Below the pieces are notes generated by a model, which was given only the letters and a program-made list of their open reading frames with translations, did no database searches and was not told the origin of the DNA. This document shows, in pieces, positions 4,401 through 64,000 of a stretch of DNA of 64,000 nucleotides. The stretch spans positions 78,554,001 through 78,618,000 of the forward strand of contig CM060731.1 in NCBI GenBank assembly GCA_030704615.1, given 5' to 3'. The position numbers and the translations under genes were made by a program. Every line of letters begins with the position of its first letter. Position 1 is the first letter of the stretch. This DNA comes from Takakia lepidozioides. Its lineage: Eukaryota; Plantae; Bryophyta.

Positions 4401-4444
4401 TATCATATAACCAAGATGAAGTACTTATACAAACAAGCAACATC

Positions 4445-4447
<3 letters not shown>

Positions 4448-4478
<31 letters not shown>
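4448..4478. repeat. (AT)n microsatellite
   Basis: Visible in the sequence. Confidence 0.95.
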
Positions 4479-4483
<5 letters not shown>

Positions 4484-5296: not shown

Positions 5297-6831
5297 TTGA
5301 CTTGATGAATATGGATTGAAAATATAGTAACACAAATTAATACAACATCTTGTTAGTTTGGGTGGTATAGGGACCATAAATAAAAACTGCGTGTCAACAG
5401 AATACCATGTTTGATCTATCACTGCAAGAATATCATTCGTCCATTACTTCTCTTGAGATATGGAAGGTCGCAATGATGCAAGAGATCATATGAGCCACTA
5501 AGATGAGACATGTATAATGGATATGAGCAGTTGTATATAAGAGGAAGAAGTAGACTAGGATCTATACTCTATAGAATTAAAAACGGTGGAAGATAGAGAA
5601 GAAAAAAAATGAAGACAAACATGTAAGTTACACATCATGTACACCAATGTTGTTCTGAAGCAATAAAGTTGATTGCATAATCCCCCATCAATTGATGCAC
5701 TAGCCATAGTAGTTTTGTTACAATAATATTTGTTGCAGGATTCATATTTACACATAAACTGGGCAGTAACAAAAGATTATAATGAGAACCAACATTCAAT
5801 GTATGGGAACGGTTGAAAAGATAATAAGAAGTAAGTTTGCAAGAGGAGAGGAGGTGACACTTGAATGAAAGGTATAGAAGTTTAGCGATCCTTAATTTTT
5901 GACATTGATTTCTAGTCTTCTCTTTGAGTAAACAAAAGCCAATAAATAATATAACAAAATTGTTCTAATGCCTCTTGAAAACATATTAATTATAGCCTAA
6001 ATGTGTGTTTATTTCAGCTTGAGCAAAGTACATGAAAAAAGAGAAGAAAAAAACAAGGAATAAATAATCCTCATTCTCATATCCCATTGTGTCGAAACAT
6101 TATATCGCCAAAATGTTGCTTACAACTATGAATCATATATCCACTGGTAAACTCTGTGAATTCAAGAATTTGCACTTGGTCCACACTACGACTTCAACAT
6201 GCTGAATTTTCTAGAATACCGGCCGATGAAAATATGCTAAGATCTAAGATAAATGTATATGGAATATGATACCAATGTAAGAGTATCAACTTATAAGAGT
6301 TCGTTATCCCTCACCTCTATCAAACGTACATCCCAATTTAAACATGATATTTTTGTAAGAGTATCGACACAAAATCCTTTTATATAGTAATCTGATTTAA
6401 TATCATGATCCGTTCGTGGGCTTACATTGGACTTAAAAATGACTGTGGCTCTTCTACAACTCTTTCCAAATTTGTAAGAAATTATTATCAAACGCCACAA
6501 CCATTTTCTACTTGTGGATTGCGAATGCTCCCAAACGCTAGAAATTAATATTGGCCAAAGCGCTTTTCTACTTCCAGTTCATAATCTTGTATTTAAGACC
6601 CCAGGTCCCCATGACTAATCATGTTTTCAATCACTCCCACTTCACATTCCCAACCCCGCCCCCCTTCATATTTATGTAGACTACCGAATGTATACGTTTC
6701 AGAAATTCAATGCTTCAATACATCAAACAAGTCAAAGATACTCAACTAGCTTTTTAAAAAAACAAAAAAATACTTGTCCATTTTGTGGTATTATATGTCA
6801 AAAATACTGATAGTCTGGTGAAAATATATGG
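5297..6831. repeat. Inner left arm of a long inverted repeat (partner 7939-9476)
   Basis: Near-identical reverse complement; identical mirrored ORFs 6291..6500(-)/8273..8482(+) and near-identical 5555..5755(-)/9021..9218(+). Confidence 0.95.
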
Positions 6832-7229
6832 TTGAAAATATAGTAACATCCATCAAATGTTCATATAATTAAGCCGATTACCACACATTCATTAACATAT
6901 GTATATATATATATATGGCTTTGAAGACATCATACTTCAATGATTAACTATAATTTTAATGCAACATCACCATGTCTGGTGGTAAGACACTCGAGTAGAA
7001 GAGAAGAGAGAAGAAGAAGACTCCGGTCGAAGCCGACGTAATTAAGAGCCACTTTGTTTTGCAGCTATTGCCCCTTACAGAGGTGGGCCCTATGTAAAAA
7101 TTGAGGCCCATGGGATACCCTGGGGCAGATTGGGAGAACGGTAGTAGTGGTGAAGGGTGCCGCTTGGCACTCGTGGGCCCATGGGTACCAGTGGTACCCA
7201 GAGGCGTATGAGGTGCCTAGGAAGCGGGA

Positions 7230-7938
7230 GGGAGACTGGATTCGAGTTTGTCGTTTGTTGGTGATGATTGCAATGAGGGATCGGAGCGCGCGGTGAGGTG
7301 TATTGCTTTGAAACAATTGTGAATAGATGTGATAGGGATTTAAAAATTATTTTGAAGGGTAGAGATGCTGGCATTATGGATGCCTCATCTGGTGCCAGTA
7401 GTTACGACAGTGAGTGGGCCGGTGCCCCACCCTCGTCGGCGGATGCCAACGATTAATGGTGCGTACTTTTTACGTTTTTCTAGAATAGAGGCGCTAGGGA
7501 AGCAGTCGTGGCAGTATATGAATTTTATAAAATGTATGGTGATGCCTGATGATGGTGAATGAGGGGGGGGGAGTTAAGGGGGAGGCCCTAGACTATGAGG
7601 ATGTCCGGGCATAGTTTAGCGGGGCATGTGCAGGACCCGCAAGGTTGACAGATACGTGGAAGGAGCCAAGTACATACTATATGGTCTGGAGGCCGACCCT
7701 GGTAGGTGCCGGCGTTGATGAGTGTAAACCATCTGGTTGCACTACATTGTAAGAGAAGTTTGTGGATGTGCCATACGGCGTGATTATGACGAGCGATTCG
7801 CAACCCTGTGGATGACAGGGTGTGGACATTCGCTGAGAATACGAGGCCAAGTATCACGTTTGGCATGAAGGTGTGAGCAGAGTGGGCAGTGTGGGGATGG
7901 GAATAGGGTTGGCCAGAAGGTGTGTTTGCGTTGATGGC
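7230..7938 (-). mobile_element. Decayed 3' fragment of a non-LTR retrotransposon with a CCHC finger and restriction-like endonuclease (RLE)
   Basis: Translation across stops and frameshifts: CPLC-x12-(H>R)ILSEC...LRIARHNHAV...PDILIV...IHFIKFIYCHD...EKRKKYAPL...GW..PLTVVTTG. This is the CCHC-RHN-PD-(D/E)-K..KY order of RLE-clade elements. Confidence 0.75.
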
Positions 7939-10087
7939 CCATATATTTTCACCAGACTATCAGTATTTTTGACATATAATACCACAAAATGGACAAGTGT
8001 TTTTTTTTTGTTTTTTTTAAAAGCTAATTGAGTATCTTTGACTTGTTTGATGTATTGAAGCATTGAATTTCTGAAACGTATACATTCGGCAGTCTACATA
8101 AATATGAAGGGAGGCGGGGTTGGGAATGTGAAGTGGGAGTGATTGAAAACATGATTAGTCATGGGGACCTGGGGTCTTAAATACAAGATTATGAACTGGA
8201 AGTAGAAAAGCGCTTTGGCCAATATTAATTTCTAGCGTTTGGGAGCATTCGCAATCCACAAGTAGAAAATGGTTGTGGCGTTTGATAATAATTTCTTACA
8301 AATTTGGAAAGAGTTGTAGAAGAGCCACAGTCATTTTTAAGTCCAATGTAAGCCCACGAACGGATCATGATATTAAATCAGATTACTATATAAAAGGGTT
8401 TTGTGTCGATACTCTTACAAAAATATCATGTTTAAATTGGGATGTACGTTTGATAGAGGTGAGGGATAACGAACTCTTATAAGTTGATACTCTTACATTG
8501 GTATCATATTCCATATACATTTATCTTAGATCTTAGCATATTTTCATCGGCCGGTATCCTAGAAAATTCAGCATGTTGAAGTCGTAGTGTGGACCAAGTG
8601 CAAATTCTTGAATTCACAGAGTTTACCAGTGGATATATGATTCATAGTTGTAAGCAACATTTTGGCGATATAATGTTTTGACACAATGGGATATGAGAAT
8701 GAGGATTATTTATTCCTTGTTTTTTTCTTCTCTTTTTTCATGTACTTTGCTCAAGCTGAAATAAACACACATTTAGGCTCTAATTAATATGTTTTCAAGA
8801 GGCATTAGAACAATTTTGTTATATTATTTATTGGCTTTTGTTTACTCAAAGAGAAGACTAGAAATCAATGTCAAAAATTAAGGATCGCTAAACTCCTATT
8901 ATGCCTTTCATTCAAGTGTCACCTCCTCTCCTCTTGCAAATTTACTTCTTATTATCTTTTCAACCGTTCCCATACATTGAATGTTGGTTCTCATTATAAT
9001 CTTTTGTTACTGCCCAGTTTATGTGTAAATATGAATCCTGCAACAAATATTATTGTAACAAAACTACTATGGCTAGTGCATCAATTGATGGGGGATTATG
9101 CAATCAACTTTATTGCTTCAGAACAACATTGGTGTACATGATGTGTAACTTACATGTTTGTCTTCATTTTTCTTCTCTATCTTCCACCGTTTTTAATTCT
9201 ATAGAGTATAGATCCTAGTCTACTTCTTCATCTTATATACAACTGCTCATATCCATTATACATGTCTCATCTTAGTGGCTCATAGGATCTCTTGCATCAT
9301 TGCGACCTTCCATATCTCAAGAGAAGTAATGGACGAATGATATTCTTGCAGTGATAGATCAAACATGGTATTCTGTTGACACGCAGTTTTTATTTATGGT
9401 CCCTATACCACCCAAACTAACAAGATGTTGTATTAATTTGTGTTACTATATTTTCAATCCATATTCATCAAGTCAACCCTAAACTAGAACACTATAGATT
9501 ATACATCCACATATTAGATCTAGTTGTTCTTTAAATATCATCAAATTATTACGGTATAGTCCAACACTCTTAAAGACAAGGTCTCATCATATTTGAATTA
9601 TGCAAATGACCCTAAATTCTCTACGTATATATATATATTTATTTATTTATCAGAAATTAGGTTGTGCCAATCTGAACTAAGTTGTGCCAACAACCTGGCG
9701 GCGCCTCCCTTAGTGGTGCCACCAACCTTGTTGGCGCCCCCTGCCTTAGTGGCGCCACCTACGTTGTTGACGCCCATGTTGTCAACAAGTGGTGTGAACA
9801 ACTAAGTTGATTTGTCGAGGGCCGTGGTCATACGGTATTCCTTCGTGTACCAAATGCCCGACAAATCAAAGATGAAAGCATCTAAGCATGAATTTGAAGG
9901 ATCTAAGAATTTATTAGAGAATATTTGTTGAACAAGCGGGATGAAGACATGGGCATTTGGTATTCCAACGCATACCGTTTGCCCACAAAATCAACCCTGG
10001 ACAAATCATCTACAACCACTAGTGGTTGATTTGTCGAGGGTTGTAGATGATAGTGAAATTGTCGAGCATTTGATATTCCGTAGGGCT
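7939..10087. repeat. Right arm of the long inverted repeat (7939-9476 pairs with 5297-6831; 9480-10087 pairs with 2589-3204)
   Basis: Direct reverse-complement comparison. Confidence 0.9.
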
Positions 10088-12103: not shown

Positions 12104-12892
12104 GTTGTCGTGCGCATACATATCGCTACACAACTACATCGCTGTCCAAAACCACACATCACATGTGTATACCAAACACTAGTCTATAACTAATCCACCA
12201 CTAGTGCACCGCTAGTCCTGCCACTAGTGCAACCACTAGTCCAACACTAGTGCAGCCACTAGTCCAACACTAGGCTGCCACTAGCCACCACTAGTGCAGC
12301 TACTAGTCCACCACTAGGCTGCCACTAGCCCATCACAATGATAAAGAATGAGATTGATACAAACACACAAGCTCTCTCAAACTCACATACTTGCACATGA
12401 AAACATCACTCATATATTAAGTCCAGCCAAGTGCACCCACGCCATGGGGGATCCACACTACGGCGCCATAGCTAGACGCGGTGAGGCTCAACTCGAGAAA
12501 GATGAGCCCACCGCGATCTGCCGTGAAGATAACAACGTCAGGTGCCCAAACATGTATTGGCCCCTGGATTGACACTTGGATCAATCCCAAATGTCAATAT
12601 ATGAAAGCTAGCTATTTCCTAGCTAACTTCACACTAGTGGTAAAATATCTTGACAGCTATCGTGCGCATACATATCGGTACACAACTACATCGCTGTCCA
12701 AAACCACACAACACATGTGCACACCAAACAATAGTCTATAACTAGTCCACCACTAGTGCACCGCTAGTCTTGCCACTAGTGCAACCACTAGTCCACCACT
12801 AGTGCACCGCTAGTCTTGCCACTAGTGCAACCACTAGTCCACCACTAGTGCAGCCACTAGTCCATCACTAGGCTGCCACTAGCCCATCATAG
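12104..12892. repeat. ~235-bp direct repeats (12104-12338 and 12656-12892) rich in CCACTAGT units, abutting both sides of an LTR
   Basis: Both copies begin g(t/c)t(g/a)tcgtgcgcatacatatcg and end gccactagcccatca. Confidence 0.85.
12339..12655 (-). repeat. Downstream (3') LTR of copy A
   Basis: TGTCAAG...CTTTATCA; similar to 23770-24087. No TSD with the 5' LTR and no adjacent PPT. Confidence 0.8.
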
Positions 12893-13142: not shown

Positions 13143-13290
13143 CTATCCCAAGCAATGTGGACATAACCAATCTCCAACAGAAACCATCTCAAGAGGTGGT
13201 GTCAAGCATCCCATGTGCCAACCTCTTGAGCATCGATCACACACCAGCATAGTGGCGGCGCCACGAGCATGCCCACATAGCATGCAACGC
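13143..13290 (-). pseudogene. PHD finger (C4HC3) at the integrase C-terminus
   Basis: CMLC...MLVCDRCSRGWHMGCLTPPLEMVSVGDWLCPHC in ORF 13143..13523. Confidence 0.9.
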
Positions 13291-14505
13291 AATCCTGCAG
13301 GTACCACTACAAGGTTGGGATCTATCCTCCCATCCACATGTGGAAGGTGACATGGCGCACAATTACGCACATGGTTCTTCCATACCATGCCATCTCGACC
13401 CTCCAGAATTAACAGTCCTGAAGGCAACACCTCCCTGACCCTTAGAATCACACGTCCTGCTGTGACATCCAAGGTCGTAGGCGCTGTCTGCTGCAGATAC
13501 ACATTACTGCAGCCTACCTGCAAATAGACGCAGGCAAATCTGGCTCTCGGCCAAAGAGAAGGAAATATGGTGAGAAGGAGGCAAGTGATGCTTGCTTGCT
13601 AAACCTGTAGCCCATGGCTAGCCAAGGTACTTGAAGATCCCAATCTCCTAGGTGTCCCTTTTGCAAGCCATACTTGCGCAAACCCCTCTTTACCGTCTGC
13701 ACCACTCTCTCTGCCAAGCCATCGACCTCAGGATGATCCCGAGAAGTGCTACGGTGGTCTATCAAGGCTTTATCACACAAAGCCTGAAACTCCCCCAAGA
13801 ACTCTCTCCCTTGGTCCGTGAGTACCTCAGCTGGAGCACCGAATCGGCTAAGCACACGATCCAGGAATGCATACGCAGCCCCCTCACTAGCCTTGTCAGG
13901 CAATGGAACCAACTCAATCCACTTGGAGAAGTGCTCCACCATCACCAACACATATCTGTGGTGGCGCATCGTCAGTGGCAACGGCCCTGCGAAGTCAAGA
14001 CTCCACCTGTAGCCCAATCCTATGATGGGTAATGGATGCAACTGTGGTGTAGGGGCGTTGAATGAAGCACGCACCCTGTCACACACCATGCACCTAACCA
14101 CGAACTGTTGCATCTTTGTGTGCATACCACGCCACCAATACTGCCCATGCAGTAAACTATGAGTGCGTCGCACTCCAAAATGCCCCAACTCCTCATGGGC
14201 ATGCCGCACTAACTGTGCACACTGTGTTGGGTGAGGCACGATCCTCACCCGACCATCCTCCCACACTCGAAATAGGTGTATCCCCTCCCACTGAATCTCT
14301 TGGCTCATTGCAGGATCTGATCCCTCTCCTTGGCAGTCACACTAGCTGTCGTGTCTCCAGTGCGGAGGTAGTCCAACACAACCGAATCCTCATGTATATC
14401 TCTGGCACCATCTGGCTCATCACTAGCCTCAGGGTCCTCAGACACTCTGTCTACAGTCATCCCTGTTGTAGGTCCAACCTGACCTCCCGATGCCAAGATA
14501 CACAA
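13291..14505 (-). pseudogene. Retrotransposon integrase (HHCC zinc finger plus DDE core), disrupted
   Basis: HEELGH...CMVC; WSLDFAG...TDQG...LAERVV in ORF 13514..14308; frame breaks near 14305 and 13515. Confidence 0.93.
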
Positions 14506-14712: not shown

Positions 14713-15109
14713 GGAACCGCCGTATACGTCGTCTCTCTCCTCTAGTGACAATGGATCCAATGTCAGGCTCCCAATTGCCCTTCGTAACTACAACCTTAAG
14801 TCCAGCAGACTTAGAAGTAGAGGACGCGTCCCGTGGTTGCTATGCCGCAACCTCTTGAGCAGTACTCCCTGCCTACTCAGTCAATGACAAGGCCTCATCC
14901 TGCCCCATCATCTCATCCTTGAGGACCTCCTCAACCCGAGAAGAATCCCAAACCTCATCCATCACAGCCGCCTTGGCTGCCAACTCCCTCTGAACCTCGA
15001 GCACCTCCCACGTGTGCCATGGATGTCTACACCCCGTGGTCTTCACCGGCTCGCCCCCACTCACTACCTGTACCATCTCGGTAGGCAGAGAGACCGTCAA
15101 GGGAAGTGC

Positions 15110-16160
15110 ACTCCTCACTCTACGTTGCTCAGCCATAGCCAAGCTGATAATCCAGGTCAAGCAATTTAGATCCATCGCTTGCCCCAATACCTGACGACAT
15201 GATGCCTCAGAAAGAGGAGGCACCGCCGTGGTCCCAGTGGAAAAACCCATAGCCCACTCTCGCTCGTCGGCATTAGGCTCCACTAACTGCTGCTACTGAG
15301 CATCCCACAGGAGGCCGGGTCCACTATCCCGGAAAGCATGCGATCTTGGGAAGCTGAGCAGTGTACGGTACTGTTGTTCGTGGTCGACCCACCTTGTTAA
15401 CCACTGCCAAAGGCGGACGATCATCGTGTCTCACACGCTGAGACTGCCTCCCTGTGTCCAAGATGCTATCAACTGTGAGGTGTGCTGGTCGCTGCACCCC
15501 ATCAAATGCACGCTTAAGCAGTGCGGGTGATTTAGTCCACCATAGCCGTGGACGATGAGCCCGTGACCCCACTGCAGCTGCATCCAGCAACACTGCTGAC
15601 CCAAGCCACGACCGGACTTGATGCACACTGGCCATCACCCTGGCCCGAGAATCGCCCATCAGTGGCACATTCTCCAAGATGTATGCTGGAGATACAACCT
15701 GATAAAGCTGTGAGTGGCTTAAAACTTGCACCATCTCCCAAAACAGACCCGACCTCGAGTCTCGCAATCCATTGCCATGCCTAGCTGATGAGTGCCCTTG
15801 GCAGGGCCAACCTGCCACTACCAAATCAATGGAGCCAACCCGCTCCAAATCCTGCGCCCCCAGCAAAGAAATGTCTACTGACAAGGCCTGCTGATATCCA
15901 CGAACCGCATACACCGGCAACAACTCAGGGTACTGCTGCATCAACAGAGCAACATGACGGAGTGAGACGCGTCGTGCGGTCTCATCCCTCTCCACATACA
16001 AGTAACGCCGTACTCGTACACTTGCCTGTAGAACAGCAGCCAACCCAGTGTTGATCCCGCCAAACAAGTCCAGAAGGCAAATGCCTTCATCCAGACACTG
16101 CCACACGATTAGTGTGGTGTCCAATGATGACAACTGAGGTGGTCCTGGTGCAATCCCCGC
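15110..16160 (-). pseudogene. C5-cytosine DNA methyltransferase domain within the retrotransposon pol (copy A)
   Basis: Motif I LDLFGGI, II YVE, IV DLVVAGWPCQG, V GLRDSRSGLF, VI ILENV, VIII AHRPRLWW (ORF 15324..16217); motif IX EREWAMGF and X LGQAMD (ORF 14873..15283). One frame break. Confidence 0.93.
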
Positions 16161-16374: not shown

Positions 16375-19300
16375 CACTACAACAGATGAGCGTTTTTATG
16401 ACTGCACATATGACTATTTTTTCAGTCCTATATGCGTTCATGACTACATCACTCTATAGTGAAAAAAACCCTGTCATAGCGACTAGTCTTTAGGACTGCA
16501 TTTTGCAAGTCATAGCCGTGACTGCGTGCGTGGCACCTGGAGTCATGCATAAGAGAGTGATGTAGTTACAACTCTATAACTTACATACGACTAACTATAT
16601 GACTACATTGTCTGGTGAGCGTTGCCTACATGGAGAGGCTTTAGAGGAACACGTGTACCACTGCGCAAGTGACACGTCACGACACCTGTTGCACTTCAGA
16701 TGTGACATGTGGCACTTAGACATAATATATGACTAGCATATATGGCAGGGTTTATGCCACGTGTCATCAAGAATGTCTCTGAAAATAATTTAATAGTTAT
16801 ATTTGTAATTTTAAATTCTTAAATTTATATTTTATTTTTGAAAACAGGGAATAGCAGCTTGGAATTTTTTTATTAAATGGTATTATTGTTTAATTTAATA
16901 ATGTTATATAAAATAAAAATAGATTAAATGATTTAAATTCTTCATTATATGGTGAAATTCTGATATAAAAACAGAATGGACCCCTCTTGCATACTAGCAA
17001 CCACAAGGACATTCAAAATAGACAAGTACAGGGAAATACACGCCCTGTAAATTATATTACAAAAATCCAAATGAGACCAATGTCCCAATGGACACCTCAA
17101 AGGCCACAAGGTCCAAAAATCCATGCCTGAAAAGGTCCAGTAAGTAAAAAATAAGCAACCCCACACATGGGCTGAATTGTTGTAATACTAGTTTGTTCTG
17201 GTGCTACTAGAATCAAGGACCCTATTAAACAGTGCAATACTTACGGCCGATTTGATAAGAGGGAAAAACAAGGTGAAATGTGTTAAAGAAGGTGCCTTGA
17301 TTAACAGTGCCTGATTTGATCAATTGTGCCGCTGCTGCTGCGGCTTCCAGTTGACCATCTACCCATGCAGGTTTCTTGTACCTATCCTTCCACAGGGAAT
17401 CATAGGTAATATGGAGCTTGAAATCCGACCATCTTGGATGAATGTGGACCCACACATCTATCCCTGCTCCTTCAACTATCCATGCCCCTGCACAAATCAT
17501 GCATACATCCTCGCCTTGCTGCTAGCAGCTGACAATGACAGCCAAGTTCTATGACCCAAACCGAGAGTGAGCACAATGGCTTTGTAAGGCCAATGCCTAC
17601 AGGGCATATTCAATACTACAATGAGGATACGCAAGCAGCAGATACCATGTGTAAATAAAAAAACAACAAAGGTGGTGAAGGTGCGCAACCTGCCAAAGAG
17701 AGGGCGGAGTTGAGGAAGGATGAAGCAACTACAGACATTGCGAAATGCTCTGATGCGGACAGAAGGGAAGACCCAGGCCTTCTGGCAAAAGAACAAGCTG
17801 CTGACAGCAACAACATGGAAGCAGAGTGGATACAAGTTGATTTTGACAAACCTGAGTCCATCAGACAAGGCATTAGAAGGCCCAAACAAAGAACACTGTC
17901 TAAAATCTGTAATAACATGAGACACAGTCGTCACACACTAACCCAACATGGGTCTTGGCAAACTTTCAGCAAAGCTGAAACAATCACAGAAGCAAAAAAA
18001 GGGGCAGGACCTCAAGGGAAGATGTATGGAGTACCTTTTGCAGTGATCAATGAGTACGTGGAAGGAGGAGAAGCTTACCCATTGCCAAGCACGGAGTACA
18101 TGATGCAACCAACAGCACAAGTATCATGTCAGTTCACTCATAATGAGCTGGAGGCACTGGATGAGTTGGACGAGATATACCATATAAGTGATCACACTCC
18201 AATAAGACTACAACAACACCCCACATCAACATGTTGACACGGGGAAGTGCAAAGAAGGCCAAAATAGGGGATGGGATGCCTATTCTGCAGAAATCCAGCC
18301 AAGACATCAAGGATTTAGGGCAAAAACATGGATTTGGTGAAGAAGAATGCATTGGCATGGACAACATCTACAGCTCAGCAGGGTTTGAGCGCCAACCAGA
18401 GATATTCATGGGAGAGGGTGACAAAAGCGAGGAAGAAGCCAAAACACAAAGCCTTGACACATTCACTGAAGACTGGGCAGACAAACAGATAAGAGAAGAC
18501 AACTCGCAAGAAACGGATAAGAGGGGAAAACAGGGTGAAATGTGCTGAAGGAGGTGCCTTCAGTAGAAGTGCCTGACCTTATCAATTGTGCCGCTACTGC
18601 TGCCGCTTCCAGTTGACCATCTACCCATGTAGGTTTCTTGTAGCTATCCTTCCACAGTGAATCACAGGTAATGTGGAGCTTGAAATCCAGCCCTCTTGGA
18701 TGAATCTGGACCCACACTCTATCCCTGCTCCTTCAGCTATCCATGCCTCTGACAGCCTAGAATTCTACCAGCAAACACCCCAACCATACTGGTGTGGAGT
18801 TCTTCCCCAAAACACCCCAACCCTACTTATCACAATCTGAAATGCATCTGCTTCTCTCTGTAGTCCAATAGTCATTCGCCTTTTTGTCTCCATTGTCCCA
18901 CCATTGACTGGGGTCGGAAAGTGTTCACCCCAAAGCTTCTCCTCACCTCTATTATATGTTTTTGGATACTTCCATGCTGCCACACTGGTAGTAACTTGCC
19001 AAAGTCACTCCAAACCACCACAGATCTACCCAACGACCTAACTTACAGAATTCAATATGCATCTTGCGGACGAGTATGATGAGAGGGCAACACAGGCTGA
19101 AATAGGTTGAAGAAGAAGGTACCCTACCACATTGTCCTTGACCTGTCCTGACCCATGGAGGATTTGACCGACCATCAACCTAAAATGACCTCTTGTGTGT
19201 GCTGCTTGTGTCTGTAGTCAGGTAATGTCGGATCGGTCTGTGAGATCGAACCACTACGGCCTAGCTGAGTAGTCAGAGATTGAAACACGCATGCTAAGAC

Positions 19301-19903
19301 CAAGCTGACTTTCCCAAGAACGGCGAGCTCGCTTCTCCTCGTCTCGTCTCCTCCTCCTCTTCTCCTTCGTGCATCATTTGCTCAACGCCTCCATCCCACG
19401 CCCCTGCATATCCTGCTATCATCGCGTTCCATCCCTCGGCTATGTGGTGTGGCGCAGGAGACAAAAAAACGCCAAGTCCCAGCCCTCATTTCTGTTCACG
19501 ATTACCCTAATGGGCAACCTTATTAACAATTTTTTAACTTTTTTAAACCTAATGGGCAACCTTATTTGCATTATATGTGCCTTCAAAATGACACGTGTAG
19601 TGATGTAGTCGTATAAATAGAGCTGTGAAACCATCTTCAGTCATGGAGTCATAAGATTCCATGAAACGTCGTCCACGTGTAGTCAAACATATCACACTAG
19701 TCATATAAACCATCCCTGTCATCATGGTCAACAATGTTTGACCAATGCTCCCTAACTTTCCGGAGTCATGTAGTGATATCCATTACTACAAAGTCATAAA
19801 ACTATGATTGCAATGCATTTCAGCGCTCTGTAGTCATCTACCTAGTGCAGTTTTTATGACTCCGCCAAAGCCGTAGTCCTAAAAACGCTCATCTCTTGTA
19901 GTG
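16375..19903. mobile_element. CACTA (En/Spm) DNA transposon, non-autonomous, inserted in copy A
   Basis: 29-bp TIRs CACTACAA(C/G)AGATGAGCGTTTTTA(T/G)GACT; 3-bp TSD TCA; subterminal TATGACT/AGTCAT motifs. Removing it restores ...DAVSWPG, matching AAVSWPG in copy B. Confidence 0.95.
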
Positions 19904-20960
19904 TCACTGCATCTATGAATGCTGCCAGTATCGGCATCTTGCCTCGCTGGGCAACCGCAACTCCTCCTATGAACGTCACAGGGAGCTGCACACGCCGGCC
20001 CTCCCCTGACTGCCATCCAGGCCTATAGGAAGCCGACTCCTCCCAAAAATCCAGGGTGAAGCCCATGGGGTACAACATTGCCCCACCAACAATAACATCG
20101 TACGAGACCGCATCTATCACAATGGCCTTGGCTCTTATCACTGAGCCATCTGTAGGATGATCCGGCTGTAGTCCGATAGCCAACTCACGCCGTGTAATGC
20201 CTCAAGCCTGCTCTGATCCTCCCAGAGATGTCTGTATCTGGAAAGGACACGGCTCCATATCCGCCTCCATGAGGCCCAAGCCTGCAATAGCAGCTCTGCC
20301 CAGCATCAATGGCTGAGCTCCCGAGTCCAACGAGACCCGTAGTGGCCAGTACCTCTTGCCTGCCGGTCCACTCAAATATAAAATGTCATCCTGGTTATCT
20401 AACATGACAACTCCAGGTGTCACCATGGCGCGCTTAATGGCTGGCCTAGCTGGCAGCTCCATCAACCTAGTAGCTATAGCTTGTCATGGCGCCGCCGTGG
20501 TAGTCTTGACCCTCACATCCGAGGATCCCTCCGGCACTACACCTCCCACTATCTCCGCAGAAGATGAAGTAACCTCCCCACTCTCACAGAGTGTGGCTGC
20601 CAGCCTGAATACCTCAGCTGGTCTTACCCCCGGCGTCGCAATCATGGTAGCCGAGAACAATGGAGCCTGGCACACAGCTGTGGCCGCCCCCAACAGCACA
20701 CTAGCTGTCGTAGCTTTGGCAACACTAGGTAGTGGTGTTGCCCGTGTAGCTCTCCCCAATGGCATAGTAACCTCCGCCTCGGTAACAGTCGAGCGAGAAC
20801 TAGGTGCCATGGATGGCGTCGACATTGTCTCCGCCAATGTGAATGACTGAGGAAGCCTGGCCTGACGGCTTGCCTCCCCACGCTATGGATCCAACTCCAC
20901 CTCCGCACCCCGTGGCTCAAGAACTCGTGCTGCTCTTCGAGTCACTGCCGCAGCTGACTC
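19904..20960 (-). pseudogene. Gag-pol linker and aspartic protease (copy A)
   Basis: VSLDSGAQ active site and YDVIVG in ORFs 20202..20465 and 19854..20183; colinear with ORF 62143..63417. Confidence 0.9.
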
Positions 20961-21119
20961 CACTTGCACTAGTGGTAGTGCTGCCCGGCACTAGTGGTAA
21001 TGGTGCCCCACCCATAGTGGTAGTGGTAGTGGTGCCCCACCCATAGTGGTAGTGGTAGTGGTACCCCTCACTAGTGGTAGTGGTGCCCCACCCATAGTGG
21101 TAGTGGTAGTGGCACCCCT

Positions 21120-22685
21120 CACTAGTGGTAGTGCTGCCCCGCACATGAATCCCATGCCTCCCATATCTCCTCCCTCAGGAGCAGGAGGTGGACCATCCGG
21201 CCTTGGAGCCGGTACCACTTGAGCTGTGGCCATGGCAGCGAGCCTCTACTCTAGCTGCTGAAGCCGATTGGCCATGCCTTGGTCACCACCCTGACCTCCG
21301 CGTCCTTGGCCATGTTGAGCTTGCCCTTGGCCTGCACGTCGTGCCTGGCCACCTCGTCCTCTCTAGGCTACTCCACCTCGCCCCCGGCCACCATTGTTCC
21401 CTTGGAACTGGCCTGGGTGCAACTCAGGATGCAAACCATAGCACTGGGCCTCTCCATGCCCGTACTTGCCACAATGCCTAAACTGTGCAGGTTGTGCCGG
21501 TGCCAAACCATTGCCTCCCTCTGGGCAATCCTTCTTGATATGAGGTCCTCCACATGTCCAGCATACCACATCCGCCCATTGTTGGCTTACAAATGAAGGG
21601 AGCGACCCCTGCATCTGAGGTCCTCTCTGTCCTTCCCTAGGCTTCACCTGAGCCCCCTTGTTGCCTTGAGTACGTTGAGGTAGTGGCTGGCTAGGAGCAC
21701 CACTATCCCGTGGTGCCTCCTTAGCAAATCCCACCATGACCACTCGTTCCTCCACCATGTTGAGCTCTATCCGCTCTGCCAGCAAAAACACATTTGCTAA
21801 GGTGGGTTGGGCCGCTTGTAGGAGAGTTGCATCCTGCACCCTTCTCCTCAGCTCCTTGTCCAATATCCTATACCAGAACTGGACTGCCTGAGCTTCTGTA
21901 ACTCCTTGGGTTACATTTATCAAGCGCCTCATGCAAGTGAAAGCCTCCCTCATGCTCTCAGTAGGCTTCCTCTGGAACTCTTGCAAGCTCCTCAACTTCT
22001 CTGTCCTCAACCCTTGGTAGTTCATTCTCAACTCTTCGAAGAACTCCACAACAGGGTTGAAGGCAGGCACCGCCACTGGTGCTGGTGCAGCAGTAGCTTG
22101 GGTGGACGTCGTAGCCTCTGTACCACTAGTCCCACTACTGCTCGTGGAAGCTGCTGTTGTAGCTGCTGCTGCTGGTGCAGCTGCCGGTGTGGCTGCTGCC
22201 CTTATTCCTCTAGTGCCTCTAGTGATGGAGACATAATCGGGTGACCAGTACATCCTCCACTCCTTGATCTCAATATTATGCCCCTGCCTAAACTCATGGC
22301 AATCATCCATGGGCGGTCCCTCAAGGTGCTGAAACAACCCCTTCCATGCCATAAAAGGCGTAAACAATTGTGGATTGCGCATTTGCTGCAAGTCACACCA
22401 ACTATCAAACTCTTGAATGAAATCATCCAACTCAATGGTGCCCACCGCCCCAGAGTACATACGTGGCCCCTTGGTGGCTCCATACATCTCCTCGATTGTG
22501 TCCCACAACAATGGCAAGGAAACAACTTGCACCGCCGGTGTGAGTCCTCTTGATTCACAATCCGAATCAGAACCTTCCGTAGAAGACACAGGAGGTGAAG
22601 GTGGCCTAAACCGCACACCTCGTCTTGTATACCTGCTAGTATCGCTAGTGCTCGTACCGACACTTTCCCCAGCAACTAGTGGCAC
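21120..22685 (-). pseudogene. Gag with two zinc knuckles and an RGG-rich tail (copy A)
   Basis: ORF 21363..22685: capsid-like region, CWTCGGPHIKKDC and (C>F)RHCGKYGHGEAQC. The premature TAG corresponds to CAG in copy B. Confidence 0.88.
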
Positions 22686-23757
22686 CTCCGTGTTGACAAA
22701 CTGACACTCAACTAGTCATGAACATGTTTCTAACCCCCTCTCCACAAGGTAACTGGGTAGAGAACCTGATGCGACTTATGGTTGGAATACTAGGTTCATA
22801 ACATAGCCTGCACCTGCACCTGCATTCACCGCAGACACTCCTATGGTTGGCTGGTCATCACCTCCAACCTCACCACAGGAGAAACAAAGATGGTCTGACT
22901 AGTCATCAACCCAGCCTCACCATCGACAGCATACTCTAGGGTTGGATCGGCGATCAAGCCCGAGTCAACTACCTATAAAATCAAGCGCCCACACAAAACT
23001 AGCATGGCGCACAATCAAGCATGCAGGTGTGGAGGGGATCCAAACACAAATCTGAAAATACGCACCTTTACAAACTTGGTGCACTTGCACTTCTCATGCA
23101 TCTCCCTTGGCTCTAGGGCGCCTCGTTGCTGCCCTTCTAGCCCCGCTCTTGCCACTCCAAGAGCCCTTACACTGCTGAGTTTCAGATTGAAACTCCAACT
23201 CAGCACATGCTTCACAAGTGCACTGATTTGCACACAAGAGGGACCAGCCCCCTCTCTTCACATATACCTCTTCATGAGCTTGGAGCTGAAGCTCCCAACG
23301 GACTGCGATGCATCCCCTCGCAGCTCCACCATTCGGCTGCTCCTCATCTACCCGCAACAACTAGTTTTGGGCAGAAATACCTGGAGCTGATCATATCATC
23401 TCCAACCTACAACATGCTAGCTTCCCATGCGCAGCCCACATTCCTTCAGCTCCTTAACTCGGCCTGCAACTGAAGAAGACGACCACCAGTTTGCCCACTC
23501 GTGGCCAACATCTCCTCCGCTTCACACTAGAAGCCCAAACTTGGTTGCCATAGCGTTGAGCTATGCAACGCCGCTCTTCAACAGAGGCTACCCGTCTCTC
23601 TATCCATGGCAAACCTGCAACCTGTTCGCCTTTGCACTCTATCCGCTTTGGATAGGCTCATGCACGGCTCCCTGCACTCTAGGTTGAACCGCTTCTCATG
23701 ATCTAAAAACACAAGTGCTACAACTAACTCGAACCTGGCACTCACAGACTCGAGCTG

Positions 23758-23769: not shown

Positions 23770-24087
23770 TGATAAAGAAAGAGAATGATACAAACACACA
23801 AGCTCTCTCAAACTCACATACTTGCACATGAAAACATCACTCATATATTAAGTCGAGCCAAATGCACCCCACGCCATGAGGAATCCACACCACGGCGCCA
23901 TAGCTAGACGCGGTGAGGCTCAACTCGAGAAAGATGAGCCCACCGCGATCTGCCGTGAAGATAACAACGCCAGGTACCCAAACATGTATTGGCCCCTGGA
24001 TTGACACTTGGGTCAATCCCAAATGTCAATATATGAAAGCTAGTTATTTCCTAGCTAACTTCACACTAGTGGTAAAATAACTTGACA
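23770..24087 (-). repeat. 5' LTR of copy A
   Basis: TGTCAAG...CTTTATCA, followed by the PBS-position sequence and a leader to gag. Confidence 0.92.
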
Positions 24088-59903: not shown

Positions 59904-60559
59904 AGCGAGCTACTGTAGCTTGGGACAAGGTTAGTGGCAGGTTTCTGGACATAGATATACCTCCTACACCTTATTATCATGCAGAGCGAGGCACTTTGAG
60001 AGAAGTCTGGCAGTTGATAGCATAGATCAGGATTAGATCTTGCTGGGTCGGGCTTTTATTCTTCCCCTCCATCTCTGTACTATTTTCATTATCTTGTACT
60101 TGTAGTTGCCAAAGCCTCTCTTGGTGGAGGCCAGTCAGTCCGGGGTTTTGGGCTGGGATATTCTGCAGGATCAGCATTGCAGATGGATTTTGGTGTGGGG
60201 GTGTTGATGTTTTGATTTCTTGTGTTTGGATCCCCCCAACACCTGCATGCTTGACTGTGCGCCATGTTGGTTTTGTGTGGGCGCTTGCTTTCATAGGGAT
60301 TAGGCCGGATTTGATCACCGGTCAATCTTAGAGTATGCTGTCGGTGGTGAGGCTGGAGTGATGACCAACAAGACCACCAGTGTTTCTTCTATGGTGAGAC
60401 TGGGTTGATGACCAGCCACCATAGGAGTTCTTGCGGTGGATGCAGGTGCAGGTGCCCTGAGCCACTGGGATATGACCCTTAAACTGCAACAGGTGCCCAC
60501 CCGTGTCACTATTAGAATTAGTACTAGAGCCTTATAGTGTCACGTGGGGAGGTGCACAT

Positions 60560-62140
60560 TGTGAGTGTCATCACGGAGTTACCCAGGGTTCTGAGGGGAG
60601 TACGGCTACAGGCAGTAGTAGTGAGAGTGGGTTCACCAGATGAGGTGTTCGTTTCAGACCACCTTCACCTCCACCTTCAACTAATGCAGAGTCAGACACA
60701 GACTCGGAGGCTTCATCAACAGGTGTGCAGTTTTATTCGCCATTGTTGTGGGACGACATGGAGGAGATGTATGGAGCTACCAAGGGGCTTCGTAGGTACT
60801 CTGGAGCTGTGGCACAATCGAGTTGGATGACTTTATCCAGGAGTTCGACAGCTGGTGTGATTTGCAGCAGATGCGCAATCCACAGCTATTCACCCCATTC
60901 ATGGCGTGGAAGGGACTGTTCCAGCATTTGGAAGGCCCGCCTATGGACGATTACCACGAGTTCAGTGAGGACATGAAGCAGAGATTGAGGAGTGGAGGAT
61001 GTATTGGTCACCTGACTACGTCTCCATTACTCGAGGCACGACGCGACCAGTAGCTGCATCAGTATCAATATCTTCCACTGCCAGCACTAGTAGTGGAACA
61101 AGTAGTGCCGGTACTTCTGCAGGTGGTACCAGTTCAAAAGGTGCTACTACTCCTCTTGCCACGACTACAACACATGTGCCTAGATTCAACCCGGTGGTGG
61201 AGTTCTTTCCAGGAGTTGCGGAGGAACTTCCAAGGTGTACGGACAGAGAAGCTGCGAAGTTTGCAAGACTTCCAGCGCAAACCCAGTGAGAGCCTGCGAG
61301 AGGCCTACACTCGTATGAGGCGCTTGATAAGTGTGACCCAAGGGGTTACTGAAGCTCAGGCAATCCAGTTCTGGTATGGAATTTTGGACAAAGAGCTCAG
61401 GAGAAGGTGCGGATGCAACCCTGTTACAAGCAGCCCAACCCACATTAGCAGATGTGTTTCTGCTGGCTGAGCGGATTGAGCTCAACATGGTGGAGGAGCG
61501 AGTTGTTACCATTGGATTTGGCAAGGACATGCCTGCACGAGGCACAGCTGCCAGCCCACAGGCACAAGGGACTGCCCAACAGCGTGGTCAGGGGGCAAGG
61601 TTTCCCAACCCAAGTTCCATGGAGCTTACAGGGGACCTCAGGTGCAGAGGCCCGTGGCATCTTTTGCAGGCCAACAGCAACCAGGGGTGATATGTTGGAC
61701 ATGTGGAGGACCCCATGTCAAGAGAGATTGCCCAGAGAGTGGCAGAAGGCCGGCACAAGCACAGCCTGCACAGTTGCAGTGTGGGCATTGTGGCAAGTAT
61801 GGGCATGGAGATGCCCAGTGTTATGACTTGCATCCTGAGTTGCGCCCAGGCCAGTTCCAAGGGAACAATGGTGGCCGGGGGCGAGGTGGACCAGCCCAGA
61901 GAGGACGAGGTGGTCGGGCACGAGGTGCAGGCCAAGGGCAAGCTCAACATGGCCAAGGACGCGGAGGTCAGGGTGTTGACCAAGGCATGGCCAACCGGCT
62001 TCAGCAGCTAGAGCAGAGGCTCGCTGCCATGGCTACAGCTCAGGCGGTACCGGCTCCCAGGCGGGATGGTCCACCTCCTCTCCTGAGGGAGGAGATATGG
62101 GAGGCATGGGATTCATGTGCGGAGCAGCACTACCACTAGC
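60560..62140 (+). pseudogene. Gag of copy B (frameshifted)
   Basis: Fragments LLWDDMEEMYG, DDFIQEFDSWCDLQQ, CWTCGGPHVKRDC and CGHCGKYGHGDAQC match gag of copy A. Confidence 0.88.
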
Positions 62141-62142
62141 AG

Positions 62143-63417
62143 GTGGAGTCTGCTGCAGCCGTGACTCGAGGAGCAGCACGAGTTCCTGAGCCACGAGGTG
62201 CAGAGGTGGAATTGGATCCACAGCGTGGGGAGGCAAGCCGTCAGGCGAGGCTTCCTCAGTCATTCACATTGGCGGAGACAGTGTCGACGCCATCCATGGC
62301 ACCTAGTTCTCGCCCGACTATTACCGAGGCGGAGGTTACTATGCCATTGGGGAGAGCTACACGTGCAGCACTGACACCTGCTACCAAGGCTAGTGCAGCC
62401 GGTGTGTTATTGGGGGCAGCCACCTCTGTGTGTCAAGCCCCACTGTTCTCGGCAACCATGATTGCGACGCCGGGGGTAAGACCAGCTGCAGTGTTCAGAC
62501 TAGCAGCAACACTCTGTGAGAGTGGGGAGGTCACTTCATCTTCTGCGGAGTTAGTGGAAGGTGTAGTGGCAGAGGGATCCTCGGATTTGAGGGTCAAGAC
62601 TGCCACGGCTGCGCCATGGCAAGCTGCAGCTGCCAGGTTGACGGAGCTGCCAGCTAGGCCAGCCTTTGAGCGCGCCATGGTGACACCTGGAGTTGTCTTG
62701 TTAGACAACCAGGATGACATTTTCTCTTTGAGTGGACCGGCAGGCAAGAAGTACCGGCCACTGCGGGTCTTGTTGGACTCGGGAGCTCAGCCACTGATGT
62801 TGGGCAGAGCTGCTATTGCAGGTTTGGGCCTCATGGAGGCGGATATGGAGCCTTGTCCTTTCCAGATACAGACATCTCTGGGAGGATCAGAGCAGGCTCG
62901 GGGCATGACACGGCGTGAGTTGGCCATTAGACTGCAGCCGGATCATCCTATAGATGGCTCAGTGATGCGAGCCAAGGCCATTGTGACAGACGCGGTCTCT
63001 TACGATGTCCTCGTTGGTGGGGCAGTGTTATATCCCATGGGCTTCACCCTGGACTTTTGGGAGGAGTCAGCATCCTACAGGCCTGGATGGCAGTCAGGGG
63101 ATGGTCGTCGTGCACAGCTCCCTGTGACATTCATTGGGGGTATTGCGGCTGCCCAGCGGGGCAAGATGCCAACACTAGCCGCCTTTACAGCTGCAGTTAG
63201 TTGGCCTGGAGAGTTGCTGGAAGGCAATGCCCATGCAGAGGATGTGCCACCTCCAGCAGAGCAGGATGACATGCATGGTACGGCGGAGTTGCCTGCCATG
63301 GTTGCTCACACTCCATTGTGGGGTACGAGCAAGGATTTGCAGCAGGCTGCTGATGGACGGGTGCAACAAGCCTGGGTAGAGGCCTTCGTACCGTCAGAGA
63401 AGAGGAGAGTGCGGTGA
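62143..63417 (+). CDS. Gag-pol linker plus aspartic protease (copy B)
   Basis: 424-aa open segment with VLLDSGAQ and YDVLVG. Confidence 0.88.
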   Translation: MESAAAVTRGAARVPEPRGAEVELDPQRGEASRQARLPQSFTLAETVSTPSMAPSSRPTITEAEVTMPLGRATRAALTPATKASAAGVLLGAATSVCQAPLFSATMIATPGVRPAAVFRLAATLCESGEVTSSSAELVEGVVAEGSSDLRVKTATAAPWQAAAARLTELPARPAFERAMVTPGVVLLDNQDDIFSLSGPAGKKYRPLRVLLDSGAQPLMLGRAAIAGLGLMEADMEPCPFQIQTSLGGSEQARGMTRRELAIRLQPDHPIDGSVMRAKAIVTDAVSYDVLVGGAVLYPMGFTLDFWEESASYRPGWQSGDGRRAQLPVTFIGGIAAAQRGKMPTLAAFTAAVSWPGELLEGNAHAEDVPPPAEQDDMHGTAELPAMVAHTPLWGTSKDLQQAADGRVQQAWVEAFVPSEKRRVR

Positions 63418-64000
63418 TTGCACCAGGACCACCTCAGTTGTCGCCATTGGACACCACACCTCTTGTGTGGCAGTGCCCGGATGAAGGCATATGCCTTCTG
63501 GACTTGTTTGGCGGGATCAGCACTGGATTGGCTGCAGTACTGCAGGCAGGTGTACGAGTTCGACGTTACCTGTATGTGGAGAGGATGAGACTGCACGACG
63601 CGTCTCACTGCGCCAGTTGCTCAGTTGGTACAGCAGTACCCTGATTTGTTGCCAGTGTCTGCAGTTCGTGGATACCAACAAGCCTTGCCAGCAGACATTT
63701 CGTTGCTGGGGGCGCAGGATTTGGAGCAGGTTGGCTCCATTGATCTGGTAGTGGCAGGTTGGCCCTGCCAAGGGCATTCATCAGCCGGGCATGGCAATGG
63801 ATTGCGAGACTCGAGGACGGGTCTGTTTTGGGAGATGGTGCGGATTTTGCGCCACTTGCAGCTTCATCAAGCTGTATCTCCAGCATACATCTTGGAGAAT
63901 GTGCCACTGATGGGTGATTCTCGGGCCAGGGTGATGGCCAGTGTGCATCAAGTCCGGTCGTGGCTTGGGTCAGCAGTGTTGCTGGATGCAGCTGCAGTGG
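63414..64000 (+). pseudogene. C5 DNA methyltransferase domain (copy B), truncated by the window end
   Basis: LDLFGGIS, YVE, DLVVAGWPCQGHS, GLRDSRTGLF and YILENV; small indels near 63585-63625. Confidence 0.92.

What the first reader, a model, noticed from the sequence alone, without database searches (positions are those of the whole stretch)
13143..13523. Integrase ends in a PHD finger instead of a chromodomain: a chromatin reader paired with a DNA-methylation writer
Seen: an intact C4HC3 PHD (CMLC..MLVCDRC..WHMGCLTPPL..V..GDWLCPHC) is the last domain of pol. Established: chromoviruses carry a chromodomain at this position to steer integration, and PHDs with the CLxPPLxxxPxGxWxCP signature (AIRE, BHC80, CHD4 type) typically bind the H3 tail unmethylated at K4. 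Inference: the element may target H3K4me0 chromatin, giving a reader-writer pair that parallels the ADD-MTase logic of DNMT3.
Basis: partly seen in the sequence, partly recalled or inferred. Interest (0 to 1): 0.75.

Follow-up and report, generated by a model that had tools for sequence, protein, structure and literature searches.

The report
Jumping-gene integrase tipped with PHD finger
A dead copy of an abundant plant jumping gene, whose family also carries a DNMT3-like DNA methyltransferase, ends its integrase with a real PHD finger that likely grips the tip of histone H3 to help place new copies, but the finger lacks the acidic residues that read unmethylated lysine 4, so the proposed reader-writer switch is unlikely.

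Summary
The PHD is real (Pfam 39 bits; eight ligands; minus strand 13286-13152). This copy is dead, however: integrase core and PHD lie in different frames across a deletion, RT/RNase H is mostly gone, and a CACTA transposon sits before the methyltransferase. The element is kin of KnitGypsy-Dnmt3 (DNMT3-type domain, A-coding-B-A-B split repeats). A terminal PHD is the rule in this lineage: 94 of 98 integrase relatives long enough to show it carry one, from green algae to bryophytes, and none of 120 lists a chromodomain. The finger has no K4me3 cage and keeps the Ala1/Arg2 contacts. In the window's subclade, 17 of 19 lack all three further acidic features used by K4me0 readers, so an H3-tip tether with weak K4 discrimination fits better than strict K4me0 reading. 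The ADD parallel is weak: 1,040-1,313 residues, and likely a read-through stop, separate the two domains, and some relatives keep the PHD without a DNMT. PHDs in retrotransposon pol are in print (Gypsy-7a_cRei); I found no paper on this terminal PHD. This scan reported the same family before, in this genome and others. Binding and targeting are untested.

The parts
13152..13286 (-). C4HC3 PHD finger, last domain before the stop (13145-13143). No cage Trp; Arg2-binding Asp kept; no acidic residue in the 8 positions before C1; Ser at the Pro of PxGxW
13330..13505 (-). SH3-like integrase C-terminal domain (three short strands in the model), same frame as the PHD; lower bound approximate; 'SH3-like' is my label from fold and position
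13504..13518 (-). deletion junction with frameshift between integrase core and C-terminal domain; about 190 nt present in other copies are missing
13514..14341 (-). integrase: H2C2 zinc finger and rve core
   Evidence: PF17921, PF00665
14580..14760 (-). remnant of pol: start of the RT region joined to the last ~30 codons of RNase H; RT and most of RNase H deleted (a contig of another copy holds about 1.28 kb more between 14653 and 14687)
14834..14842 (-). TAG followed by CAACCA, likely the end of the gag-protease-DNMT frame with a read-through context (CAR-YYA motif recalled, not from a call)
   Evidence: lead from e1-10631578
15130..16145 (-). DNMT3-type C5 methyltransferase domain (FGG, WPCQ, ENV, RxRxWW motifs); frameshift near 15365 and a stop at 15295 in this copy
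16375..19903 (.). nested CACTA-type DNA transposon: CACTA termini, 27 of 30 nt terminal inverted repeat, TGA duplicated on both sides; absent from the second copy
19968..22715 (-). gag-like region and aspartic protease (DSGA), with stops and frameshifts
23770..24087 (-). repeat A1, 5' end of the element, begins TGTCAAG; 305 of 318 positions identical to A2
12658..12889 (-). repeat B1 (91% to B2), joined to A2 by a GC dinucleotide
12339..12655 (-). repeat A2
12106..12335 (-). repeat B2, 3' end of the element, ends GACA; flanks GCAT / ACAT may be a 4-bp target duplication with one mismatch
60220..64000 (+). second copy of the family (gag, protease, DNMT directly joined), cut by the window end before pol

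Best explanation
The PHD is the conserved C-terminal module of the integrase of a Ty3/Gypsy lineage related to KnitGypsy-Dnmt3, here in a dead copy, and it likely tethers the integration complex to nucleosomes through the free tip of histone H3 (Ala1 and Arg2), with predicted weak sensitivity to K4 methylation and likely no direct control over the element's DNA methyltransferase. Shown: PHD fold and ligands; fusion to integrase across the family; no K4me3 cage; retention of the residues matching KDM5A D312, G333 and W335 (and P331 in the family); loss in this subclade of the residues matching D292, E305/D306 and D315; wide separation from the DNMT; decay of this copy. Inferred: that it binds H3 at all; that binding biases insertion, at most mildly away from H3K4me3 promoters; that the protease releases DNMT and integrase-PHD as separate proteins; and that the DNMT acts on the element's own naked cDNA, where no histone needs to be read.
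For: The query was the integrase core alone: 97 of the best 120 hits carry a PHD, 94 of the 98 with at least 60 aa after the SH3-like domain do, and none lists PF00385. Named hits include Klebsormidium, Calypogeia, Haematococcus, Pleodorina and Tetrabaena; Marchantia and Sphagnum came and Coleochaete. Among 167 parsable PHDs of 181: Gly at the cage-Trp position 152, Asp after C3 153, Trp/Phe at the end of PxGxW 155. The clade holding the window's closest integrase relatives was defined on an INT+SH3 tree without the PHD (19 proteins, FastTree support 0.96). In it, acid within 6 residues before C1 occurs in 2 of 19, the E305/D306 patch in 0 of 19 and D/N at the D315 position in 0 of 19, against 101, 78 and 67 of all 158. 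Median net charge is +2, against -4 in the green-algal layout. UHRF1 is a precedent for R2-driven, K4-tolerant binding without the Asp (PMC3214078). DNMT end to PHD start is 1,040-1,313 aa in 8 ORFs and 488-812 aa in 48. P0164, P0172 and P0260 lie in the clade that normally holds DNMT between RNase H and integrase; they have a short gap (259-287 aa against at least 568), no DNMT hit and an intact PHD. PHD-bearing Gypsy-7a_cRei inserts between genes 2.6 times more than chance (PMC9940879).
Against: No binding or insertion-site data were obtained. K4me0 can also be read by backbone carbonyls (KDM5A V291, D292, Y294; bioRxiv 715474), so loss of acidic side chains lowers but does not exclude K4 selectivity. 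UHRF1 uses an extra zinc finger and a second Asp (D337) that this finger lacks, so affinity may be low or H3 may not be the ligand. 9 of 50 further cluster members do have an acid within 6 residues before C1. The subclade counts are from related sequences and may reflect one loss event. DNMT and PHD do co-occur in 75 ORFs and in both domain orders, which fits long joint retention. The DNMT-less ORFs may have a DNMT in an upstream frame that I could not see.
Confidence: 0.5

Rival explanations
1. The PHD is a strict H3K4me0 reader that steers integration away from active promoters, independently of the DNMT.
For: Nearest solved sequences include CHD4, KDM5A/B PHD1, ATXR5, BHC80, BAZ2A and AIRE, and no ING or BPTF finger is among the best 60 of 74 shown. 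There is no cage Trp. Outside the window's subclade most members keep an acid before C1 (102 of 142 within 6 residues), so the ancestral finger may have read K4me0.
Against: In this subclade 17 of 19 lack all three acidic features. The review PMC3241642 names the acidic cluster as the feature of this class.
Confidence: 0.22
2. One reading: PHD and DNMT work as one reader-writer unit like ADD-MTase in DNMT3, so that reading K4me0 directs or activates methylation at the insertion site.
For: Both domains are kept in 75 single ORFs and in two domain orders. Catalytic Cys, Glu and Arg are intact in 27 of 28 upstream-type and 62 of 65 mid-type DNMTs with over 75% profile cover. Both proteins could meet in one particle.
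Against: The domains are 488-1,313 aa apart with RT/RNase H and/or integrase between them. In this subclade 7 of 24 DNMT-ending proteins stop 82-90 aa after the DNMT, and the window has TAG-CAACCA near the matching place. The PHD persists without a detectable DNMT. K4me0 determinants are missing. KnitGypsy-Dnmt3 DNMT gave no activity in yeast, which the authors call inconclusive (PMC5890265).
Confidence: 0.1
3. The finger has a non-histone job in this subclade, such as binding target DNA or a host chromatin protein, or stabilising the integrase multimer.
For: The subclade finger is basic (median +2; Arg/Lys just before C1 in 24 of 25) and has lost the acidic H3 groove. PHDs with non-histone ligands exist (PMC3241642, abstract passage).
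Against: The Asp after C3 and the PxGxW residues, which form the Arg2 and Ala1 pockets, stay conserved (24 of 25; 46 of 50 and 48 of 50). They also have structural roles, so this is not decisive.
Confidence: 0.15
4. The PHD reads H3K4me3 and targets active genes.
For: Met three residues before C3 (139 of 167) matches a cage position in ING-type fingers (recalled).
Against: The invariable cage Trp (PMC3241642) is Gly in 152 of 167 and Trp in 1.
Confidence: 0.03

Closest known systems
KnitGypsy-Dnmt3 of Klebsormidium nitens (de Mendoza et al. 2018, PMC5890265; passages of the main text and a search of 3 supplement files seen, figures not visible); called streptophyte 'Gypsy-DNMT3' in bioRxiv 10.64898/2026.05.21.726589 (passages)
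   Same: Gypsy pol with a DNMT3-type domain; DIRS-like split repeats A-coding-B-A-B; K. nitens proteins are among the integrase hits, one with DNMT-RT-RH-INT (P0101) and two with integrase plus PHD (P0078, P0100).
   Different: The paper's text and supplements never mention a PHD (0 hits); Fig. 4c could show one. Here the host is a land plant, the DNMT is likely separated from pol by a stop, and the PHD has lost the acidic residues that the two K. nitens fingers partly keep.
Gypsy-7a_cRei of Chlamydomonas reinhardtii (PMC9940879, passages)
   Same: Gypsy Gag-Pol with a PHD, proposed in print to help avoid harmful insertions; insertions between genes 2.6-fold over chance.
   Different: The figure legend lists PHD between RH and INT, an order seen here only in P0293, P0300 and P0318, which fall outside the window's clade. 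No DNMT is mentioned in the passages read.
Chromoviruses (chromodomain at the integrase C-terminus; as cited in PMC6673714 and bioRxiv 2021.11.30.470311, passages)
   Same: A histone-reader domain at the same position of a Ty3/Gypsy integrase.
   Different: PHD rather than chromodomain; split repeats; no chromodomain listed in the 120 nearest integrase relatives. Descent from chromoviruses was not tested.
EpiLTRs (bioRxiv 10.64898/2026.05.21.726589, passages)
   Same: A chromatin reader and DNA methyltransferases in one LTR element.
   Different: Those carry chromodomain + Dam + a DNMT4-sister DNMT; this carries PHD + DNMT3-type.
Unmodified-H3 PHD readers: KDM5A/B PHD1, ATXR5, BHC80, AIRE PHD1, UHRF1
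   Same: Fold (0.7-1.6 A), no aromatic cage, Arg2 Asp and Ala1 pocket residues.
   Different: No acidic K4 residues before C1, no E305/D306 patch, no second Arg2 Asp, and no UHRF1-type extra zinc finger.

Membership tests
PHD finger (PF00628) | C4HC3 ligand set and profile score above cut-off | tested here: met
   39.1 bits against 24; eight ligands
PHD finger (PF00628) | PHD fold | tested here: met
   predicted model, pLDDT 87-94 over the finger; Foldseek matches at 0.7-1.6 A
H3K4me0-specific PHD class (AIRE, BHC80) | no aromatic cage | tested here: met
   Gly at the Trp position in the window and in 152 of 167
H3K4me0-specific PHD class (AIRE, BHC80) | [quoted passage not shown] | tested here: not met
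   VVVPAGLR in the window; none in 8 positions in 23 of 25 near relatives, window included; 2 of 19 with an acid in the tree-defined clade
H3K4me0-specific PHD class (AIRE, BHC80) | hydrophobic residue before C3 and Asp after C3 for Arg2 | tested here: met
   M-L-V-C-D in the window; Asp in 153 of 167
H3K4me0-specific PHD class (AIRE, BHC80) | binding to H3 abolished by K4 methylation | not testable with these tools
   needs a binding assay; no H3 sequence was available for a complex prediction
H3K4me3-reading PHD class (ING, BPTF) | invariable cage Trp | tested here: not met
   Gly
KnitGypsy-Dnmt3 / Gypsy-DNMT3 | Ty3/Gypsy domain set (protease, RT, RNase H, integrase) | tested here: met
   protease, RNase H end and integrase in the window; RT deleted here but present in relatives
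KnitGypsy-Dnmt3 / Gypsy-DNMT3 | unrearranged, intronless DNMT3-type domain with key residues | tested here: met
   29 of 30 PDB hits are DNMT3A/B/C; FGG, PC, ENV and RxR present; groups with K. nitens P0101 at weak support 0.61
KnitGypsy-Dnmt3 / Gypsy-DNMT3 | split repeats A-coding-B-A-B | tested here: met
   A1 24087-23770, B1 12889-12658, A2 12655-12339, B2 12335-12106
KnitGypsy-Dnmt3 / Gypsy-DNMT3 | DNMT in the same ORF as RT | tested here: inconclusive
   true for P0101 and P0026; in the bryophyte group 7 of 24 DNMT-ending proteins stop 82-90 aa after the domain and the window has in-frame TAGs; decay cannot be separated from design in this copy
Chromovirus | chromodomain at the integrase C-terminus | tested here: not met
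   no PF00385 in the 120 rows, nor in the Pfam scans
Chromovirus | RT falls in the chromovirus clade | tested here: inconclusive
   tree of 134 RT-RH sequences had no labelled chromovirus; 14 outgroup proteins scanned showed no chromodomain
ADD-MTase unit of DNMT3 | reader adjacent to the catalytic domain in one mature protein (recalled) | tested here: not met
   488-1,313 aa and other enzymes lie between them

The most novel reading that the evidence does not exclude
An old, undescribed Ty3/Gypsy lineage spanning green algae to bryophytes uses a PHD, not a chromodomain, to choose integration sites. It has carried a DNMT3-type enzyme in two different positions of pol, and its land-plant branch has retuned the finger from an acidic K4me0 reader to a basic, K4-tolerant one, so that active algal and bryophyte members form a natural experiment in PHD-guided integration.
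Probability: 0.3. Interest if true: 0.65.

Novelty: new variant of a known kind. Interest (0 to 1): 0.38.

Why it matters
PHD-guided integration of retrotransposons has been proposed in print (PMC6673714, PMC9940879, PMC8557442), and the passages I read offer it only as a possibility. This lineage has the finger at the tethering position, thousands of matching contigs in the host's runs, and many members in Marchantia, where chromatin maps exist (recalled), so the idea is directly testable. The sequence contrast between algal and bryophyte fingers gives a sharp prediction.

Tried and rejected
No whole genome is held for this window, so copy number and insertion context could not be measured. 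The look-up of sequencing runs listed no RNA holder. The RNA label of runs X12 and X13 is a guess, so their contigs are used only as evidence that fuller copies exist, not of expression. Contig depth was not used as copy number. The papers by Sanchez and Zhou (PMC3130114) and on REM1 (PMC1291216) are not held; REM1 is known to me only through citations. A strict regex found only 79 of 120 PHDs and a fixed PC[QVTS] pattern only 14 of 75 DNMTs. Both undercount variants, so I replaced them with local profiles and alignment columns. The local DNMT profile is more permissive than Pfam: of 22 proteins scanned, PF00145 was found in 5, and P0133 and P0143 had none. The Fisher test (p 1e-9) is not relied on, because the sequences are related. 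The RT tree used only 25 of the outgroup proteins, plus 3 with PHD, and could not place the lineage relative to chromoviruses. The DNMT tree had weak deep support and no host DNMT3, so one capture with relocation cannot be told from two captures. Chimerism, meaning PHD or DNMT from a neighbouring host gene, was rejected: intact single ORFs exist (P0026, P0064) and the second copy joins protease to DNMT directly. Literature searches (open-access library only) found no paper describing a terminal PHD in Gypsy-DNMT3 elements. Fig. 4c of PMC5890265, the Craig 2021 thesis, Repbase entries and preprint supplements were not visible and may show it.

Full report
Observation. The minus-strand frame 13598-13143 ends in a PHD with ligands C105, C108, C120, C123, H128, C131, C146 and C149 (nt 13286-13152), two more residues and a stop. 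Pfam PF00628 scores 39.1 bits against a cut-off of 24. An AlphaFold model of 13502-13146, built on 38 sequences, has mean pLDDT 80.6 and 87-94 over the finger. Foldseek matches it to DPF3, ATXR5, BAZ2A and UHRF1 PHDs at 0.7-1.6 A. The finger is therefore real. It is not part of an intact pol here: the integrase core (14341-13514; PF17921, PF00665) is in another frame, and residues 844-910 and 1-467 of the intact relative P0010 have no match in the element. Contigs of other copies carry extra sequence at both junctions, 200 letters in place of 13 at 13504/13518 and about 1.28 kb between 14653 and 14687. The window's finger has Ser at the Pro of PxGxW, where nearly all other laid copies differ from it.

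The element. On the minus strand it reads: repeat A1 (from 24087, TGTCAAG), gag-like region, protease, a 3.5-kb CACTA transposon (19903-16375; 27 of 30 nt inverted termini, TGA duplicated), DNMT domain, pol remnant, integrase, SH3-like domain, PHD, then B1 (12889-12658), GC, A2 (12655-12339) and B2 (to 12106, ending GACA). A1 and A2 differ at 13 of 318 positions. A second copy at 60.2-64 kb joins protease to DNMT directly, so the DNMT belongs to the element. The DNMT's PDB hits are DNMT3A/B/C in 29 of 30 rows. This is the layout described for KnitGypsy-Dnmt3: Gypsy domains, a Dnmt3, and DIRS-like repeats (PMC5890265, passages). The family is abundant in the host: 42,954 contigs of run X1 lay on 4.8 kb and 4,886 on the 500 nt around the PHD. 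The closest named homologs are from Marchantia, Calypogeia, Riccia and Sphagnum, so the host is likely a bryophyte.

Is the PHD a family trait? I searched with the integrase core alone, among proteins of 453-2,000 aa (292 hits, best 120 listed). A local profile finds a PHD in 97 of 120, and in 94 of the 98 that run at least 60 aa past the SH3-like domain. No row lists a chromodomain. Named PHD carriers include Klebsormidium, Calypogeia, Haematococcus, Pleodorina and Tetrabaena and Coleochaete; the Closterium hits lack it. Of 322 proteins gathered, 75 hold both a DNMT and a PHD. They show two main orders: DNMT before RT (8 full ORFs; the window's order) and DNMT between RNase H and integrase (48 full ORFs). 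The second order falls in one RT clade (57 sequences, support 0.93) that contains the named green-algal proteins. Catalytic Cys, Glu and Arg are intact in 27 of 28 and 62 of 65 well-covered DNMTs of the two types. In the window's group the PHD is truly terminal; in the green-algal order 36-507 aa follow it.

What would the finger bind? Musselman and Kutateladze (PMC3241642, passages) define K4me3 readers by an invariable cage Trp. They define K4me0 readers by the absence of the cage plus an acidic cluster before the first Cys. The cage position is Gly in the window and in 152 of 167 parsable fingers (14 of 181 were not parsed), so K4me3 reading is very unlikely. Aligned to KDM5A PHD1 (residue roles from bioRxiv 715474, passages), the family keeps D312 (Arg2; 153 of 167) and P331/G333/W335 (Ala1; 135, 125 and 145 of 167). 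The window has VVVPAGLR before C1, AA in place of E305/D306 and Ser in place of D315. This is not decay of one copy. On a tree of integrase plus SH3 only (158 proteins), the clade of 19 around the window's closest relatives (support 0.96) has acid before C1 in 2, the patch in 0 and D/N at the D315 position in 0; 17 of 19 lack all three, against 30 of 158 overall. Among 50 further cluster members with a PHD core (of 101 fetched), 9 have an acid before C1, 1 has the patch and none has D/N. Median net charge is +2, against -4 in the green-algal order. These are related sequences and may record one loss. Backbone carbonyls can also hold K4, so selectivity is lowered, not excluded. UHRF1 shows that a PHD without the Asp can bind H3 mainly through Arg2 and lose only 3-fold on K4me3 (PMC3214078, passages), although it uses an extra zinc finger and a second Asp that are absent here.

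Reader-writer pair? In DNMT3A the ADD lies next to the catalytic domain and gates it (recalled). Here 1,040-1,313 aa separate DNMT and PHD in the window's order and 488-812 aa in the other, and retroelement proteases normally cut such polyproteins apart (recalled). In the bryophyte group, 7 of 24 proteins that end after the DNMT stop 82-90 aa beyond it, many pol ORFs begin just before RT, and the window has TAG-CAACCA at 14842. That resembles a recalled read-through context; the lead came from note e1-10631578. The window also has TAGs at 14875 and 15295, which may be decay. Three members of the clade that normally holds DNMT after RNase H have a short gap, no DNMT hit and an intact PHD (P0164, P0172, P0260), though an upstream frame could hide a DNMT. 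The authors of PMC5890265 suggest methylation of the retrotranscribed copy, a substrate that would carry no histones (my inference).

Mechanism. Most likely (0.5), the integrase-PHD tethers the integration complex to nucleosomes through H3 Ala1/Arg2, with weak K4 discrimination in this branch, while the DNMT acts separately on the element's cDNA. Rivals are a strict K4me0 reader without coupling (0.22), a non-histone role (0.15), ADD-like coupling (0.10) and K4me3 reading (0.03). The sequence features are shown; binding, targeting and processing are inferred.

Known and new. PHDs in retrotransposons are called widespread, with a targeting role suggested, in PMC6673714 and PMC8557442. Gypsy-7a_cRei has a PHD in Gag-Pol and favours intergenic sites (PMC9940879). 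EpiLTRs combine a chromodomain with methyltransferases. Gypsy-DNMT3 is published for K. nitens, with no mention of a PHD in text or supplements (the figure was not visible). Nine library searches found no description of the terminal PHD, of the bryophyte and green-algal range, or of the two DNMT positions. The library is open-access only. This scan's index lists 18 earlier findings with these words in at least 4 genomes, including this one. They agree on the family. The loss of the acidic K4 residues in the land-plant branch is not in the eight summaries shown, and it tempers their 'unmodified H3' reading. Verdict: a new variant of a known kind, seen in a dead copy; interest 0.38.

Noticed in passing
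window 16375-19903: CACTA-type DNA transposon nested between protease and DNMT, with 237-nt internal direct repeats (17254-17490, 18516-18751, 89%); its one ORF scanned (17659-18237) had no Pfam hit
   Followed up: partly
window 12658-12655 and 12106: The B1-A2 junction reads (C/T)A-GC-TG, which looks like the two element ends CA and TG joined by two bases, inside a near-palindrome; it may be the site that integrase cuts (same idea in earlier notes)
   Followed up: partly
proteins P0066, P0129, P0035: Weak PTM/DIR17 Tudor hits (PF21743, E 3e-4 to 2e-3, below cut-off; 3 of 14 scanned) in the tail after the PHD of long-tailed members, perhaps a second reader; P0035 also has a weak N6-adenine methyltransferase hit
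   Followed up: partly
proteins P0293, P0300, P0318: Gypsy ORFs with a PHD between RNase H and integrase, two of them with a Dam domain; outside the window's clade, the order listed for Gypsy-7a_cRei
   Followed up: partly
DNMT domains of the green-algal order: 39 of 65 have Glu-Cys instead of Pro-Cys in motif IV while keeping the catalytic Cys, Glu and Arg; many are missed by Pfam PF00145
   Followed up: no
Closterium proteins P0114, P0134, P0142, P0148, P0176: Close integrase relatives that end without a PHD, a possible lineage-specific loss
   Followed up: no
window 1715-2116 (-) and from 56453 (+): Further A-type repeats of the same or a related family (83% and about 70% identity), beginning TGTCAAG
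   Followed up: no
window 45.5-47.2 kb and 54.4-56.4 kb: Fragments of other Gypsy pol genes (25-33% identity to this family); the window is dense in repeats
   Followed up: no
window 2593-10082: Large nested inverted repeats (arms up to 897 nt, 95-99% complementary) around 6.8-7.9 kb, possibly a foldback element
   Followed up: no
window 29122-30321 (-): 399-aa ORF with no Pfam hit; the Atlas look-alike is an unnamed streptophyte cluster (score 0.90, low recognition)
   Followed up: partly
Marchantia proteins P0394, P0395, P0396, P0399: Pieces of this retrotransposon are annotated as 'PHD-type domain-containing' host genes, which may inflate PHD gene counts in bryophytes
   Followed up: no
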